Shown here piece by piece: positions 29,360 through 33,226 of a stretch of DNA of 64,000 bases. This DNA comes from Ostreococcus lucimarinus (lineage: Eukaryota), in the NCBI GenBank assembly GCA_000092065.1, contig CP000587.1; one strand, 5' to 3'. The position numbers and the translations under genes are program-made. The notes below the pieces were generated by a model. The model was not told the DNA's origin. It was given only the letters and a program-made list of their open reading frames with translations, and made no database searches. How positions within the stretch are numbered: the first letter of the stretch is position 1; each line of letters begins with the position of its first letter.

Positions 29360-32300
29360 CTATTTAATCGACGCCTTTTCTAACGTTTTTTTATATGAAC
29401 GAATGGAGTCTTTCCACACGGACACCTTTTTGTTTTCACACACCCATATCTCTTTCGCCACCTTATCGATCAATCTAAAGTCGTGACTAACGAGTACTAG
29501 ACCGCCTTTGTACTTGTTGATGGCGTCTGCGAGAGAGTCGATGCAATCGTGATCCAAGTGATTCGTCGGCTCGTCGAGAAGAAGCATGTTTGGGTTACCG
29601 AGACAAATCATGGCGAATACCAAACGTGATTTCTGTCCATCCGAAAGCGCGGCGATGGGATTGGTTTGTAAACGCCCGCTGATGCCGAACTTGCCCAAAT
29701 ACGACCGCCACTCGTCCGTCGGTTTTCGCATGTCATAATACGTCCCAGAGAAGAAATCCAAAGGCGACGCGCGCGGGTCCAGCACATCGACGCTGTGCTG
29801 ATGGTACCGCCCGATGCTGAGGTGGTGGTGTCGCGCGACTTCGCCTTCGCTCGCTTCGATATCACCCGTCATGAGCTTGAGAATTGTCGACTTACCCGCA
29901 CCGTTTGGGCCGACGAGCGCGATTCGAGAATCGCAATCCACTCCGAACTCCAGGTTTTCTAAAAGCATACCGAGCGAAGGATCCGCCGTGTGATATCGGA
30001 AGGAAACGTTCTTAAACGGAAGTACTGGCGGTGCGAGCTTGGCACAATCTGGGAACGTGAATTCGAAAGTTCTCTCCGCCGTCGGCGACGGCGTCAACCC
30101 GGCGGCTTCCATCTTGTCCAGAATCTTTTGTTTCGAGTTCGCCTGTTTCATCTTATCCGCGTAGGTACCGCAAGACGCGATGAATTCTTTCAGATGTTTG
30201 ATATCCGCTTGCTCTTTTTCGTACTGCTTCTGCTGAATAACCTCTTCCGCCGCGAGCGTGGCGCGAAACGTATCGAAGTCGCCCGTGTAGTACTTCAAAG
30301 TCTTGTTTGTGACTCTGATGACGTGCGAGCACACACCGTTGAGGAAGTCTTGCGAGTGCGAAATCACGACCAGGCACTTCTTATATTTTGACAGATGATC
30401 TTCGAGCCACACGCACGCGCTCAAATCTAAGTGATTCGTCGGCTCGTCGAGTAAAAGTAACGCCGGCGACGCCAAAAGAGCGCGCGCGAGAGAGACGCGC
30501 ATTCGCCAACCACCAGACAGCGCCTTTGTTTCGCGATTCATCATGACTTTATCGAATCCCAAATTGTGGAGAAGCTCCGCCGCCGTAGTTTCAAATTTAA
30601 CCGGATCGAGTTCCTCTAAACGCTCGTATATTCCCTGAAGGCGCTCGTCGCCGGGCCCGTTCGTCGTGAGAATTTCGCTCTCGATGGCTTGCAGGCGCGA
30701 AACTTCTTCGCGTATATGGTCCACAACAGCCTCGAGCGCGCTTCGCTCACTCGGTTCAGCTTCTTCGCGCAGATGATATATGTCAACGTGTGCGGGTACT
30801 TCTAGTTCGCGCTTCGCTATGGCTTCCAGAAGCATGGACTTGCCGCACCCATTCGGGCCTAATAAACCGTAGCGCCGTCCGACGTTGAGCTCCATCACGC
30901 AATCCTTGATGAGCTCGTTACCGTTCACGGACATAGAAACTTGCTCAAATCGTAAGTCTAGTGCGGTTTTACGTGAGACGAGCACACCTGAGACGCTTCG
31001 ATCGACGTCACCCTCGACGATTTTGCCGTCCGTCTTCGTCGCGTCTCCGGACTCATCTACGCTGGTGCCGTTCTTTTCCCCACGCCGACGTCGCGCGCCA
31101 CCTTTTCGACTTGCACCGACACCGCGAGCTTCATCCTCGCTCGAGGTCACCTTGCCTTGATATACACGCCAGGTATCTGAGCACACGTCTCCCACAAAGG
31201 ATGCGTTGTGGCTGATTGTCAACACGCCTCCCTTGAAACGCCTAAGCGCCGCAGTCAGGGCTGCTAACGTTTCGTTATCTAAGTAGTTTGTCGGCTCATC
31301 CAATGCAATAATATGCGGCTTCGTCCACATCGCGGCCGCGAGCACGAGTCTGGACTTCTGACCGCCAGACATGCGCTTAATTTTCCCGTCGGCGAGCTCT
31401 TGCGATATGCCAAAATCGCGCAAATGAGAATAAACCTCGCCACTTGTCAGAGGACGTATGTCCATCCCACTTTGTATGGCTTTCATCATTTCGTCGTAAT
31501 TTTTGCACATCTTCACGACGTAAGACACTTTGAGGAATCGTTTTGGTTCCCAGTGCGTGACGCCCACTCTGTCGCCGACTTTTTTCACCTCATAACACAG
31601 CTCGCCTCCCTTGACGGCGCGCCCGAGGATCTCGCACACGCTTCCACGCGACTGCTGCTCTACTTTTTCATCATCCGTGAGTGACATTGTGGACATTTTT
31701 GCTAATTCCTTATCTCGGCCTTGGTAAAAACGAGTTTGGATGTACTCCTTGGGCGACATGTCAAGGTGCGCTTGCAAGTGGTGCATCGAGTGCTGCGCAA
31801 TGTAAGCGATGCGCAGGTTATGGTGCTTCCAGATAGAGCCACCCGTCGGCTCGAGCTCACCGACGATATTTTTCATGAGTGTCGTCTTACCCGCGCCGTT
31901 CGCACCGACGACGGCGACGCGACTGCTGAGATACATTCGAGTGTACACGCCGCTCAAGACTTGATTGTTTGGGTACGCGAAACTCAGGTCCTCAAGACGC
32001 GCGACGACTTGCGTCTTGCTCTTGATGCCATCCAGTGGCCCGGGATCGGGGAACACGATTGCCGCCGAACTAGGTTGCTCACGCGCGGCGCGCGCTGAGC
32101 TCATCCTCGATGATCCTCCGGCCAGTGCCGATGACGTGTCGACGCCTCGAATGGCGGTGACTAACCCGGCGGTGTTTTCTAACCTGTTCGCCTCGCTCGC
32201 CGCGCGACGACGACCGTTCGATTCGTTCTGCCCAGAGTCGACGATAACTCCACTTTCGTTCGAAGTCGCCACGATTTGGTCCACCATGTCCTTTTTCATT

Positions 32301-33226
32301 CGTGGGAGCACCAAATTGGGGCGCTGCGCCCGAAACCCATCGAAGCCGCCGTCAAACGTCGAGAGCTGCTGCTTATCGAATTGAATAATGTGCGTAGAAA
32401 TCTTTCGCAAAAACTCGTAGTCGTGCGACACGCACATCACAGTCGTCCCTTCCAACGCGACTAAGTAATTTGCCAGCCATTCCACGGCGCTGACGTCCAA
32501 GTGATTCGTCGGCTCGTCGAGGAGCAACAAATCCGCTCGCTGCAACATCGCTCTCGCGATGGACAATCGCATCCTCCAACCGCCAGACAGTTCAGCCACG
32601 CTCTTTTTCATCATATCGTCGTCAAATCCGACCGACCGCAGGCTCGAGTCGATCGCGCTCGCGTCCGCCCCCCCGAACTCGTTCGCCTCATCCGCCATGA
32701 ACTTGACCACCGACGCGCTCAGCGTCACCAGCACCTCGTGTCGAACGAACACGCACTTGATCCCGGTCGGAAACCCCGCGATATCGCCCGCCGCGATTCG
32801 CGTCAACAGCGTCGTCTTTCCCGCGCCGTTATGCCCGACGACGCCGTATCGCGCCCCTCGCGTCAACGACAAGTTCGTCGGCCGCAGCAGCACCTTGGCC
32901 GCGTACGCCAGGATGATCCCTCTCAGGTCCAAAATCAACCCCTCCGACGTCCCGACGTCCTCCCTCGTCGACGTCGCGTTCGCCATCGTCGCCGCCGTCC
33001 CGTCGTCTCGCGCGCACATCGCTCGAACGTCGCCGTCGTCCATGTTTTCCTCCAGCACCGGCTGCACGAGCTCCATCAGCGCCTCCGTCGTCACCGCGCG
33101 TCCCTCGTCCGCCGCCTCGAGCGTCGCCTCTCGCAGCGCGCTCGCGACGTACTCGCGCACCTCCTCGTCCACGCCCGCGCGTCGCATGACGCCGTCGCAC
33201 CGCGCGAGCCAGGCGTCGTCGTCCAT
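29360..33226 (-). CDS. Four-NBD ABC-F type protein of 1288 aa. The N-terminal half is an eEF3-type ABC cassette with a chromodomain-like insert. The C-terminal half is an ABCF2/Arb1-type cassette.
   Basis: There are four Walker A and four signature/Walker B sets: [11 protein letters not shown] with [16 protein letters not shown]...[23 protein letters not shown] with [42 protein letters not shown] with [16 protein letters not shown]...[23 protein letters not shown] with [16 protein letters not shown]...[12 protein letters not shown]. The first half is colinear with yeast eEF3 (GFPT..., [29 protein letters not shown], insert [21 protein letters not shown]). The second half has the ABCF2-like [20 protein letters not shown]. 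ATG verified (CAT at 33224-33226). Confidence 0.75.
   Translation of the reverse strand: [1288 protein letters not shown]

What the first reader, a model, noticed from the sequence alone, without database searches (positions are those of the whole stretch)
29360..33226. Four-NBD ABC-F protein: an eEF3-type ABC cassette (with the chromodomain-like insert, without the HEAT domain) fused to an ABCF2/Arb1-type cassette
Typical ABC-F proteins have two nucleotide-binding domains. This ORF has four complete sets. Its first half aligns colinearly with the ABC1-chromo-ABC2 part of fungal elongation factor 3 (GFPT, [43 protein letters not shown], the insert [51 protein letters not shown]). It has no room for the N-terminal HEAT repeats, because the divergent P450 gene starts 36 bp upstream. 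The second half carries the ABCF2/Arb1 hallmark [13 protein letters not shown]. A tandem 'double ABC-F' could bind two ribosomal sites or act as an intramolecular dimer. I do not know this arrangement from the literature.
Basis: partly seen in the sequence, partly recalled or inferred. Interest (0 to 1): 0.7.

Follow-up and report, generated by a model that had tools for sequence, protein, structure and literature searches.

The report
Four-domain fused ABC-F translation ATPase
This Ostreococcus gene really encodes one 1288-residue protein that joins a HEAT-less elongation-factor-3-like ATPase to a complete ABCF2/Arb1-type ATPase; it is conserved across related green algae, was split into two genes in the reference annotation, and was apparently never described as a fusion.

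Summary
Window 29360..33226 (-) is one uninterrupted 1288-codon ORF with four complete ABC nucleotide-binding domains.

- **N half:** residues 98-720 are an eEF3-like (eEF3L) ABC1-ABC2 cassette with the chromodomain-like insert. It has no HEAT repeats. A ~75-aa four-helix N-terminal domain looks like a remnant of the eEF3 4HB region.
- **C half:** residues ~758-1288 are a full ABCF2/Arb1 cassette with Arm and inter-NBD linker.
- **Junction:** a ~57-aa basic/acidic linker, predicted disordered, joins the two halves.

It is one gene, not two:
- there is no stop codon, and no usable start codon for the second half;
- syntenic orthologues at 59-81% identity keep the ORF open;
- a congener has a complete 1298-aa ORF on one MMETSP transcript;
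- the GC3 gradient shows no second 5' end.

RefSeq splits the ORF into XP_001418892.1 and XP_001418891.1. The main ABCF survey (Murina 2019) therefore filed the halves separately as eEF3L and ABCF2.

Dinoflagellates carry a parallel, apparently independent fusion of eEF3L with an ABCF7-like cassette.

The function is inferred, not shown: a two-module, ribosome-associated ATPase acting at the E-site/L1-stalk region. I rate it a new variant of a known kind, of moderate interest.

The parts
29360..33226 (-). Complete ORF, 1288 aa plus stop: the four-NBD ABC-F fusion protein (~140 kDa)
33005..33226 (-). aa 1-74: N-terminal four-helix domain (NTD), probably a remnant of the eEF3 4HB region. No HEAT repeats.
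   Evidence: The AF2 model has helices 3-16, 21-41, 47-58 and 64-71 at pLDDT 81-88. The NTD profile hits only the fusions and HEAT-less eEF3Ls, plus weak hits just upstream of ABC1 in HEAT-bearing eEF3Ls with the same spacing to Walker A. There is no similarity to HEAT regions.
32312..32941 (-). aa 96-305: NBD1 (eEF3L ABC1). Walker A 131, LSGGW 213, Walker B-Glu 233-241, H-loop 268.
32066..32311 (-). aa 306-387: low-complexity inter-NBD linker of the eEF3L cassette, largely disordered. A linker of similar length occurs in the HEAT-bearing relative P0074.
   Evidence: pLDDT <50 for 334-387
31127..32065 (-). aa 388-700: NBD2 (eEF3L ABC2). Walker A 441, MSGGQ ~618, Walker B-Glu 639-647, H-loop 673. 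It is interrupted by the chromodomain-like insert.
31427..31726 (-). aa 501-600: chromodomain-like insert in ABC2 (strands 530-539, 542-549, 558-561, then helix 568-588; YEVKK...WEP core).
   Evidence: It aligns to the New1/eEF3 chromo region. The AF2 topology fits. Pfam Chromo is detected in the dinoflagellate homologue P0058 but not in the window protein.
30956..31126 (-). aa 701-757: inter-cassette junction, basic then acidic, predicted disordered. Its first ~20 aa align with the basic C-terminal tail of eEF3L.
   Evidence: pLDDT is 27-49 in both models. Identity within Mamiellophyceae is 44%, versus 67-87% in the NBDs, and the frame is always open. The other two frames hold 4 and 6 stops.
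30302..30955 (-). aa 758-975: NBD3 (ABCF2 ABC1 with Arm helices). Walker A 790, [13 protein letters not shown] motif, LSGGW 903, Walker B-Glu 923-931, H-loop 957.
30017..30301 (-). aa 976-1070: ABCF inter-NBD linker (PtIM-type long helices; Pfam ABC_tran_Xtn 971-1045).
29363..30016 (-). aa 1071-1288: NBD4 (ABCF2 ABC2). Walker A 1106, LSDGQ ~1194, Walker B-Glu 1214-1222, H-loop 1248.
29360..30934 (-). Extent of the truncated RefSeq model XP_001418891.1 (524 aa, = aa 765-1288). It starts at an internal Met inside the first beta-strand of NBD3.

Best explanation
**Shown.** This is a single nuclear gene of Ostreococcus lucimarinus (or a near-identical strain). It encodes one polypeptide made of:
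- a small four-helix N-terminal domain;
- an eEF3-like ABC1-ABC2 cassette with the chromodomain-like insert, but no HEAT repeats;
- a ~57-residue disordered tether;
- a complete ABCF2/Arb1-type cassette with Arm and inter-NBD linker.

All four ATP sites keep the catalytic residues. Both halves evolve as slowly as their stand-alone relatives. The same genome keeps a separate ABCF2 and HEAT-bearing eEF3Ls, so the fusion is an extra, specialised paralogue. It is conserved and syntenic across Mamiellophyceae.

**Inferred (mechanism).** This rests on published structures of the parent families, cited from my own knowledge: Arb1 and bacterial ABCFs sit in the ribosomal E site, and eEF3/New1 sit on the central protuberance/40S head with the chromodomain on the L1 stalk.
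- The ABCF2 module docks ATP-dependently in the E site of the cytosolic ribosome or 60S subunit.
- By tethering, it supplies the ribosome affinity that the eEF3L module lost with its HEAT domain.
- The eEF3L module then acts on the L1 stalk/E-site tRNA of the same ribosome or a neighbouring one.
- The result would be a two-engine factor coupling E-site clearing with E-site occupation.
For: **One ORF**
- The ORF is uninterrupted and the other frames are closed.
- There is no Met between aa 633 and 765. M765 lies inside the NBD3 strand [13 protein letters not shown], so the 524-aa RefSeq model is truncated.

**Conservation**
- More than 50 cluster representatives of 1258-1376 aa at 59-81% identity are colinear, with an open junction.
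- Synteny with Fis1, a papain-type protease and PCO_ADO is kept at ~60% identity, with continuous 1327- and 1338-aa ORFs.

**Single mRNA**
- P0264, an MMETSP transcript of a congener in the 80%-identity cluster, carries a complete 1298-aa ORF on 4.6 kb.
- The dinoflagellate analogues are complete ORFs in Trinity/MMETSP transcripts.
- The 5'-high GC3 gradient is general for genes in this window and does not rebound at the junction.

**Identity of the halves:**. Murina et al. label them eEF3L and ABCF2.

**Intact catalytic motifs in all four NBDs**.

**Equal evolutionary rates:** identity to six outgroups is 34-42% for the fused copy and 35-42% for the stand-alone ABCF2.

**Flexible tether, no fixed docking:** junction pLDDT 27-49, pTM 0.46.

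**Functional coupling suggested by recurrence:** dinoflagellates fuse the same kind of NTD-eEF3L module to a different ABCF. The dinoflagellate C halves form their own 100% clade, are closest to ABCF7, and group with the Mamiellophyceae C halves in 0 of 100 bootstraps.
Against: - There is no direct transcript or protein evidence for O. lucimarinus itself. The RefSeq annotation has two models.
- Ribosome binding of either module is inferred by homology only.
- HEAT, the main 40S-head anchor of eEF3, is missing. The eEF3L module may therefore not bind at the eEF3 site at all.
- Stand-alone HEAT-less eEF3Ls (650-760 aa: P0235, P0109, P0110, P0252) exist, so this module can evidently work without a covalent ABCF partner.
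- An ABCF in the E site and an E-site tRNA are mutually exclusive, so simultaneous action on one ribosome is not guaranteed.
- AF2 gives no inter-cassette interface.
- The trees are NJ with few references. ABCF3 and ABCF5 are not represented.
Confidence: 0.6

Rival explanations
1. There are two adjacent genes, as in RefSeq (XP_001418892.1 eEF3L and XP_001418891.1 ABCF2). The continuous frame would be incidental, or the halves would be produced separately from an internal promoter/start at M765, or by an unnoticed intron.
For: The reference annotation and the Murina et al. dataset treat them as two proteins. The junction is the least conserved segment, at 44% identity.
Against: - The upstream 'gene' would have no stop codon.
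- M765 lies inside the first beta-strand of NBD3, and no other Met occurs between aa 633 and 765.
- The junction stays open in all orthologues down to 59% identity, and in syntenic loci.
- A congener's transcript has the complete 1298-aa ORF.
- GC3 does not rebound as it does at gene 5' ends in this window.
- Additional production of a short ABCF2-only isoform cannot be excluded.
Confidence: 0.04
2. The fusion is real but the modules are functionally independent. The link only ensures co-expression and stoichiometry, or co-localisation. Alternatively the polypeptide is cleaved in the disordered junction. Each half would then do what stand-alone HEAT-less eEF3L and ABCF2 do separately.
For: - The tether is long, disordered and poorly conserved, with no predicted inter-cassette interface (pTM 0.46).
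- Stand-alone versions of both modules exist.
- Both halves evolve at the same rate as the stand-alone forms.
Against: - The fusion is maintained with synteny across the sampled prasinophyte relatives (59-81% identity). This happens even though the genome also keeps a separate ABCF2.
- A parallel fusion of the same eEF3L type to a different ABCF arose in dinoflagellates. That argues that proximity of the two engines is itself selected.
Confidence: 0.3
3. The protein is an intramolecular 'dimer of ABCFs' whose two cassettes regulate each other off the ribosome (for example auto-inhibition), or it has a non-ribosomal role. ABCF2/ABCF1-type proteins have been linked to other processes.
For: No data here place the protein on ribosomes. 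The HEAT anchor is missing.
Against: AF2 predicts no confident cassette-cassette packing. Each cassette retains the elements that in its parent family contact the ribosome:
- the Arm and PtIM-type linker with ABC_tran_Xtn;
- the chromodomain-like insert;
- the basic tail.
Confidence: 0.06

Closest known systems
eEF3 / New1 / eEF3L clade of ABC-F ATPases (yeast eEF3 PDB 2IX3, 7B7D; New1 6S47; eEF3L of Murina et al. 2019)
   Same: - ABC1-ABC2 cassette with a chromodomain-like insert in ABC2, no Arm, and a basic stretch after ABC2.
- 49% identity and colinear with a green-algal HEAT-bearing eEF3L.
- eEF3/New1 are the best sequence and fold matches.
- Placed in the eEF3L clade at 100% bootstrap and by Murina et al..
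   Different: - It lacks the whole N-terminal HEAT region. The relative P0074 has ~595 aa there, with PF24987 and PF24984.
- Only a ~75-aa four-helix unit precedes ABC1.
- Pfam Chromo is not detected in the window protein itself.
- It carries a second complete ABCF cassette at its C terminus.
ABCF2 / yeast Arb1 (PDB 6R84)
   Same: - The C half is colinear with Arb1 over the whole chain (E 2.8e-176).
- It has the Arm, the ABC_tran_Xtn linker and the [13 protein letters not shown] motif.
- It is 62.6% identical to the stand-alone O. lucimarinus ABCF2 XP_001417756.1 and groups with it at 100% bootstrap.
- Its evolutionary rate is the same.
   Different: It has no free N terminus. In place of the usual charged N-terminal extension it is tethered to an eEF3L cassette. 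It is a second ABCF2 paralogue in addition to the canonical one.
Stand-alone HEAT-less eEF3L proteins of other algae (e.g. Cymbomonas CYMTET_45535 = P0109, 762 aa; P0235, 650 aa; P0110, 722 aa; P0252, 743 aa)
   Same: They share the NTD followed by the eEF3L cassette: NTD profile E 3e-9 to 6e-12 for P0109/P0110, and 42-48% identity to the N half for P0109/P0110.
   Different: They stop after ABC2 and have no ABCF2 cassette. Their relationship to the N half is unresolved in my trees.
Dinoflagellate four-NBD ABCFs (Gymnodinium smaydae P0058, Polykrikos kofoidii P0071, Symbiodinium P0178/P0062, Effrenium voratum P0194; auto-annotated 'ABCF3')
   Same: Same order of parts and similar length (1260-1300 aa): NTD, eEF3L cassette with chromo insert, disordered junction, second ABCF cassette with ABC_tran_Xtn. 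They are complete ORFs on single transcripts.
   Different: - The C half is not ABCF2. ABCF1, Arb1 and YheS score about equally (380/353/334 bits), and the best labelled reference is ABCF7 (46-48%).
- It never groups with the prasinophyte C halves.
- The N halves also form a separate clade.
- Most simply, this is an independent fusion.

Membership tests
ABC-F (soluble twin-NBD ATPases) | Two ABC NBDs in tandem on one chain, joined by a linker, with no transmembrane domain | tested here: met
   Met twice over. Pfam finds ABC_tran four times and no membrane-domain families among the hits. The best PDB hits are all ABCFs.
ABC-F (soluble twin-NBD ATPases) | Catalytically competent motifs: Walker A, signature, Walker B plus Glu, H-loop | tested here: met
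   All four NBDs have Walker A, Walker B-Glu and H-loop by pattern search. Two signatures were found by the pattern (LSGGW 213, 903). The other two (MSGGQ ~618, LSDGQ ~1194) are read from the translation. Walker A/B and H-loop residues are invariant in the family alignments. ATPase activity itself was not tested.
eEF3 / eEF3L | N-terminal HEAT-repeat domain | tested here: not met
   There are no HEAT Pfam hits. aa 1-97 have no similarity to the 595-aa HEAT/4HB region of P0074. Only 35 bp separate the start from the divergent P450.
eEF3 / eEF3L | Four-helix bundle between HEAT and ABC1 | tested here: inconclusive
   AF2 predicts four helices in aa 3-71. The NTD profile gives weak hits (E 6e-5 to 7e-3) just upstream of ABC1 in three HEAT-bearing eEF3Ls, with matching spacing. 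Foldseek alignments to eEF3 span ~745 columns. There is no direct superposition on the 4HB.
eEF3 / eEF3L | Chromodomain-like insert within ABC2 and absence of the Arm in ABC1 | tested here: met
   The insert at aa ~501-600 aligns with the New1/eEF3 chromo region and has three strands plus a helix in the model. No Arm-like helical insert is seen in NBD1. Pfam Chromo itself falls below threshold in the window protein but is found in P0058.
eEF3 / eEF3L | Phylogenetic placement inside the eEF3/New1/eEF3L clade | tested here: met
   The eEF3L-like clade has 100% bootstrap. Murina et al. label XP_001418892.1 eEF3L. The position within eEF3L is unresolved.
eEF3 / eEF3L | eEF3 activity: ATP-dependent E-site tRNA release, essential for elongation | not testable with these tools
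   Needs biochemistry or genetics.
ABCF2 / Arb1 | Phylogenetic grouping with ABCF2, and full-length colinearity with Arb1 | tested here: met
   Arb1 E 2.8e-176 over aa 763-1280, versus 1.5e-119 for ABCF1. 100% bootstrap with the stand-alone ABCF2. Murina's label is ABCF2.
ABCF2 / Arb1 | Arm insertion in NBD1 and a helical inter-NBD (PtIM-type) linker | tested here: met
   ABC_tran_Xtn at 971-1045. AF2 helices at protein aa ~830-872 (Arm) and ~984-1041 (linker).
ABCF2 / Arb1 | Binding in the ribosomal E site; a role in 60S biogenesis or quality control | not testable with these tools
   Inferred from the homologue structure 6R84 only.

The most novel reading that the evidence does not exclude
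HEAT-less eEF3-like cassettes and classical E-site ABCFs form a functional pair in many algae. That pair has been welded into one polypeptide at least twice independently: with ABCF2 in Mamiellophyceae and with an ABCF7-like protein in dinoflagellates. On this reading the four-NBD proteins are a previously unrecognised class of two-engine translation factors. One module occupies the E site while the other manipulates the L1 stalk/central protuberance of the same ribosome or of the neighbouring ribosome in a polysome. By 'Rosetta-stone' logic, the fusions would also predict a physical eEF3L-ABCF partnership in organisms where the two are separate.
Probability: 0.3. Interest if true: 0.7.

Novelty: new variant of a known kind. 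Interest (0 to 1): 0.55.

Why it matters
ABC-F proteins are understood as twin-NBD ribosome factors, each with its own binding site. A conserved four-NBD protein covalently couples an eEF3-type engine (L1 stalk/E-tRNA release) to an Arb1/ABCF2-type engine (E-site binder).

Together with a second, apparently independent fusion in dinoflagellates, this suggests that the two kinds of factor cooperate on the ribosome. That idea is testable in Ostreococcus, where tagging, EQ trapping and cryo-EM are feasible.

It also bears on how eEF3-like factors without HEAT repeats find the ribosome.

Practically, the RefSeq models XP_001418892.1 and XP_001418891.1 of O. lucimarinus should be merged. ABCF censuses that relied on them counted one gene as two: they count 15 ABCFs, including 4 eEF3L and 2 ABCF2, for this species.

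Tried and rejected
1. **The NTD as a relative of the GCN20/ABCF3 N-terminal (Gcn1-binding) domain.** This was my own lead from memory. A 20-sequence profile searched exhaustively against 1.8 billion representatives gave 53 hits. The hits I classified were the fusions, HEAT-less eEF3Ls and their fragments, and a few unrelated proteins. 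None matched the ABCF4/6/7 references; no ABCF3 reference was available. The profile against the PDB gave only designed helical repeats. Pfam gave nothing. Rejected at this sensitivity.

2. **A single origin for the prasinophyte and dinoflagellate fusions.** Not supported: 0 of 100 bootstraps unite the C halves or the N halves exclusively.

3. **Monophyly of the HEAT-less eEF3Ls (a single HEAT loss).** Unresolved; deep nodes are below 50%.

4. **Relaxed constraint on the fused ABCF2 copy.** Rejected: its distances to outgroups equal those of the stand-alone copy.

5. **A fixed docking of the two cassettes.** AF2 gives pTM 0.46 and a disordered junction, so there is no evidence for it.

6. **Literature.** Seven full-text searches found no description of a four-NBD ABCF or an eEF3L-ABCF2 fusion. 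The main text of Murina et al. mentions only an ABCF3-WHI2 fusion. Absence from this library is not proof of absence. The domain tables S2/S3 of that paper were not readable as such.

7. **The low-GC blocks of the window as foreign DNA.** Explained instead by the 5'-to-3' GC3 decay in very long genes.

Full report
**1. The observation**

Window 29360..33226 on the minus strand is one uninterrupted ORF of 1288 codons starting with ATG.
- Pfam reports four ABC_tran domains and one ABC_tran_Xtn (aa 971-1045).
- A motif scan finds four Walker A loops (aa 131, 441, 790, 1106), four Walker B motifs each followed by the catalytic Glu and the ABCF-typical PTN, and four H-loops.
- The pattern search finds LSGGW at 213 and 903. 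The other two signatures, MSGGQ (~618) and LSDGQ (~1194), are read from the translation.
- The divergent neighbour is a cytochrome P450 (PF00067), with 35 bp between the two first ATGs.
- Downstream, a convergent Fis1 gene ends 64 bp from the stop codon.

**2. What the two halves are**

Against all PDB sequences:
- aa 763-1280 match yeast Arb1 over the whole chain (E 2.8e-176, 592 bits), against 404 bits for human ABCF1 and 309 for YheS;
- aa 89-304 and 386-694 match ABC1 and ABC2 of New1 and eEF3 (388 and 371 bits), against 207-214 bits for ABCF1/YheS. The alignment runs through the chromodomain insert.

The closest non-fused relative found is P0074, a HEAT-bearing green-algal eEF3L of 1253 aa.
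- Window aa 98-720 align colinearly with its aa 596-1207 at 49% identity. The alignment includes a long low-complexity ABC1-ABC2 linker and the beginning of the basic C-terminal tail.
- Window aa 1-97 match nothing in its 595-aa N-terminal region, which carries HEAT_EF3_N and HEAT_EF3_GNC1.

So HEAT is truly absent.

An AlphaFold2 model of aa 1-760 (33-sequence alignment, mean pLDDT 77) gives two NBDs. The ABC2 insert has three strands followed by a long helix (aa 530-588). Its best Foldseek hits in the PDB are eEF3 (E 1e-49, ~745 aligned columns) and ribosome-bound New1 (TM 0.52).

A model of aa 89-1288 (mean pLDDT 77) folds the C half with Arm helices and long inter-NBD helices. The junction (aa ~699-755) stays at pLDDT 27-38 and pTM is 0.46. 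This means two independently folded modules on a flexible tether, with no confident docking.

**3. The N-terminal 75 residues**

These are conserved in all family members and are predicted as four helices (pLDDT 81-88).

I first suspected a relationship to the GCN20/ABCF3 N-terminal domain; this came from memory only. I built a profile of 20 N-termini and searched it exhaustively against 1.8 billion representative proteins.
- It found 53 proteins. Those I classified were the four-NBD fusions, stand-alone HEAT-less eEF3L proteins (e.g. P0235 650 aa, P0252 743 aa), their fragments, and a few unrelated proteins.
- No ABCF4/6/7-type protein came up; no ABCF3 reference was available. PDB and Pfam gave nothing meaningful. 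That idea is rejected.
- The profile instead gives weak hits inside three HEAT-bearing eEF3Ls. These end 48-54 residues before the first Walker A, the same spacing as in the window protein (45).

The domain is therefore most likely what is left of the eEF3 four-helix-bundle region. I rate this inconclusive rather than shown.

**4. One gene or two?**

The organism is Ostreococcus lucimarinus CCE9901 or a near-identical strain. The 90%-identity cluster contains XP_001418891.1, a 524-aa 'predicted protein' identical to aa 765-1288.

In the supplementary alignments of Murina et al. 2019 (PMC6723617), the N half appears as XP_001418892.1 labelled eEF3L and the C half as XP_001418891.1 labelled ABCF2. 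The reference annotation therefore cuts this ORF in two, and the main ABCF survey classified the halves as separate proteins. Its main text never mentions four-NBD ABCFs.

The split is untenable for these reasons:
- The upstream model would have no stop codon.
- There is no Met between aa 633 and 765, and M765 lies within the first beta-strand of NBD3 ([13 protein letters not shown]).
- The other two frames are closed across the junction.
- More than 50 cluster representatives of 1258-1376 aa, at 59-81% identity, are colinear with an open junction.
- In loci only ~60% identical, the continuous ORF (1327 and 1338 aa) sits in the same neighbourhood: convergent Fis1, papain-type protease, PCO_ADO.
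- An MMETSP transcript of a congener in the 80%-identity cluster carries a complete 1298-aa ORF on a 4.6-kb transcript (P0264).
- Genes in this window show a general 5'-high GC3 gradient. In the ABCF ORF it decays from 0.93 to ~0.6 without any rebound where a second gene would start.

What is still missing is transcript or protein evidence from O. lucimarinus itself.

**5. Evolution**

Subfamily-labelled reference sequences came from Murina's supplement. I built a bootstrapped NJ tree of 58 half-proteins and references over 454 columns.
- All N halves fall in a 100%-supported eEF3L clade.
- The Mamiellophyceae C halves group with the stand-alone O. lucimarinus ABCF2 at 100%.
- The genome also keeps that stand-alone ABCF2 (XP_001417756.1) and HEAT-bearing eEF3Ls, so the fusion is an additional paralogue.
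- The fused ABCF2 copy is as close to six outgroups as the stand-alone copy (34-42% versus 35-42%), so it is not degenerating.

A second tier of full-length hits (35-38% identity, >90% coverage) are dinoflagellate proteins from Gymnodinium smaydae, Polykrikos kofoidii, Symbiodinium and Effrenium. Most are complete ORFs from transcriptome assemblies.
- They have the same order of parts, including the NTD and a Pfam-detectable chromo insert.
- Their C halves are not ABCF2. ABCF1, Arb1 and YheS score alike, and the best labelled reference is ABCF7 (46-48%).
- They form their own 100% clade, which never joins the prasinophyte C halves (0 of 100). The N halves also never unite exclusively.

The simplest reading is two independent fusions of an NTD-eEF3L module to different classical ABCFs.

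Relationships inside eEF3L are unresolved, so I cannot say whether HEAT was lost once or several times. The caveats are the NJ method, the few references, and the absence of ABCF3 and ABCF5.

**6. Mechanism**

Shown: the architecture, intact catalytic motifs, conservation, and a flexible tether.

Inferred from published structures of the parent families (my own knowledge, not re-derived here):
- Arb1 and bacterial ABCFs bind in the ribosomal E site, with the Arm on the L1 stalk and the linker reaching toward the P-site tRNA.
- eEF3 and New1 bind across the 40S head and central protuberance, mainly through HEAT, with the chromodomain acting on the L1 stalk.

Having lost HEAT, the eEF3L module has lost its major anchor. 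Covalent tethering to an E-site-binding ABCF2 module would restore local concentration at exactly the region where the chromodomain acts.

I therefore favour a two-engine, ribosome-associated factor. The modules could work in cis on one ribosome, sequentially, or in trans on neighbouring ribosomes.

The main rival is that the fusion only ensures co-expression of two independently acting modules. The recurrence of the fusion argues mildly against that.

My confidence that this is one gene encoding a fused protein is about 0.95. My confidence in the coupled ribosomal mechanism is about 0.5-0.6.

**7. Novelty and verdict**

Both parent families are well known, and each half of this very gene has been classified before, but as separate proteins. 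Automatic pipelines label the long proteins 'ABCF2' or 'ABCF3'.

Seven full-text searches found no description of a four-NBD ABC-F or of an eEF3L-ABCF fusion.

I rate it a new variant of a known kind, of moderate interest. It is a clear annotation correction plus a testable hint that eEF3-like and E-site ABCFs cooperate.

Noticed in passing
window 7303..21765 (-): A giant intronless ORF of 4820 aa. It has 1,3-beta-glucan (callose) synthase domains only in its C-terminal part (FKS1_dom1 at aa 2822-2933, Glucan_synthase at aa 3903-4559). The first ~2800 aa have no Pfam hit. It coincides with the ~49-51% GC block at 8-20 kb.
   Followed up: partly
window 58138..63984 (-): A 1948-aa ORF with a lipoxygenase domain only at aa 1503-1929. 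The 1500-aa N-terminal region has no Pfam hit. It lies in the second low-GC block.
   Followed up: partly
whole window; e.g. 29360..33226, 34940..35719, 49707..52631: There is a general 5'-to-3' decline of third-position GC within genes. The first 80 codons have GC3 of 0.70-0.95, and distal parts 0.54-0.74. This explains the 'low-GC islands' as interiors of very long genes rather than foreign DNA.
   Followed up: yes
window ~33390..33490 (+), N terminus of the P450 ORF 33262..34884: Three tandem copies of a 33-bp unit encode (A)SGRATSDVDG in the Arg/Ala-rich N-terminal extension of the P450, upstream of the Pfam p450 match (aa 121-511). The true start codon and any targeting role are unknown.
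   Followed up: no
proteins P0055/P0196 (906 aa) and P0197/P0198 (362 aa), on more than 100 metagenomic contigs: In one abundant related lineage (59% identity) the gene is called as two abutting ORFs that overlap by 4 nt (3415-6135 and 6132-7220 on the same strand). The cause could be an intron, a frameshift or a real split between NBD1 and the rest. It was not examined.
   Followed up: no
protein P0059 (Symbiodinium natans CAE6972288.1, 1711 aa) and P0175 (Symbiodinium sp. CCMP2592, 2657 aa): These dinoflagellate genome gene models of the four-NBD protein carry extra N-terminal domains (PF01565/PF04030 FAD-oxidase type; the NTD is at aa 465-535). The transcript-derived ORFs are ~1260-1300 aa, so these are probably merged gene models. 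They are auto-annotated 'ABCF3' or 'elf1'.
   Followed up: partly
protein P0355 (MGA1170665.1): A 197-aa fragment of this picoeukaryotic four-NBD protein family is deposited as part of a bacterial MAG (Ilumatobacteraceae). This suggests eukaryotic contamination of that bin.
   Followed up: no
O. lucimarinus RefSeq XP_001416241.1 (approximately P0074, 1253 aa): The closest relative of the fusion's N half in the same genome is a HEAT-bearing eEF3L. It shares an almost identical ABC2 signature region ([21 protein letters not shown][KN][15 protein letters not shown]). O. lucimarinus thus has several eEF3L paralogues of different architecture.
   Followed up: partly
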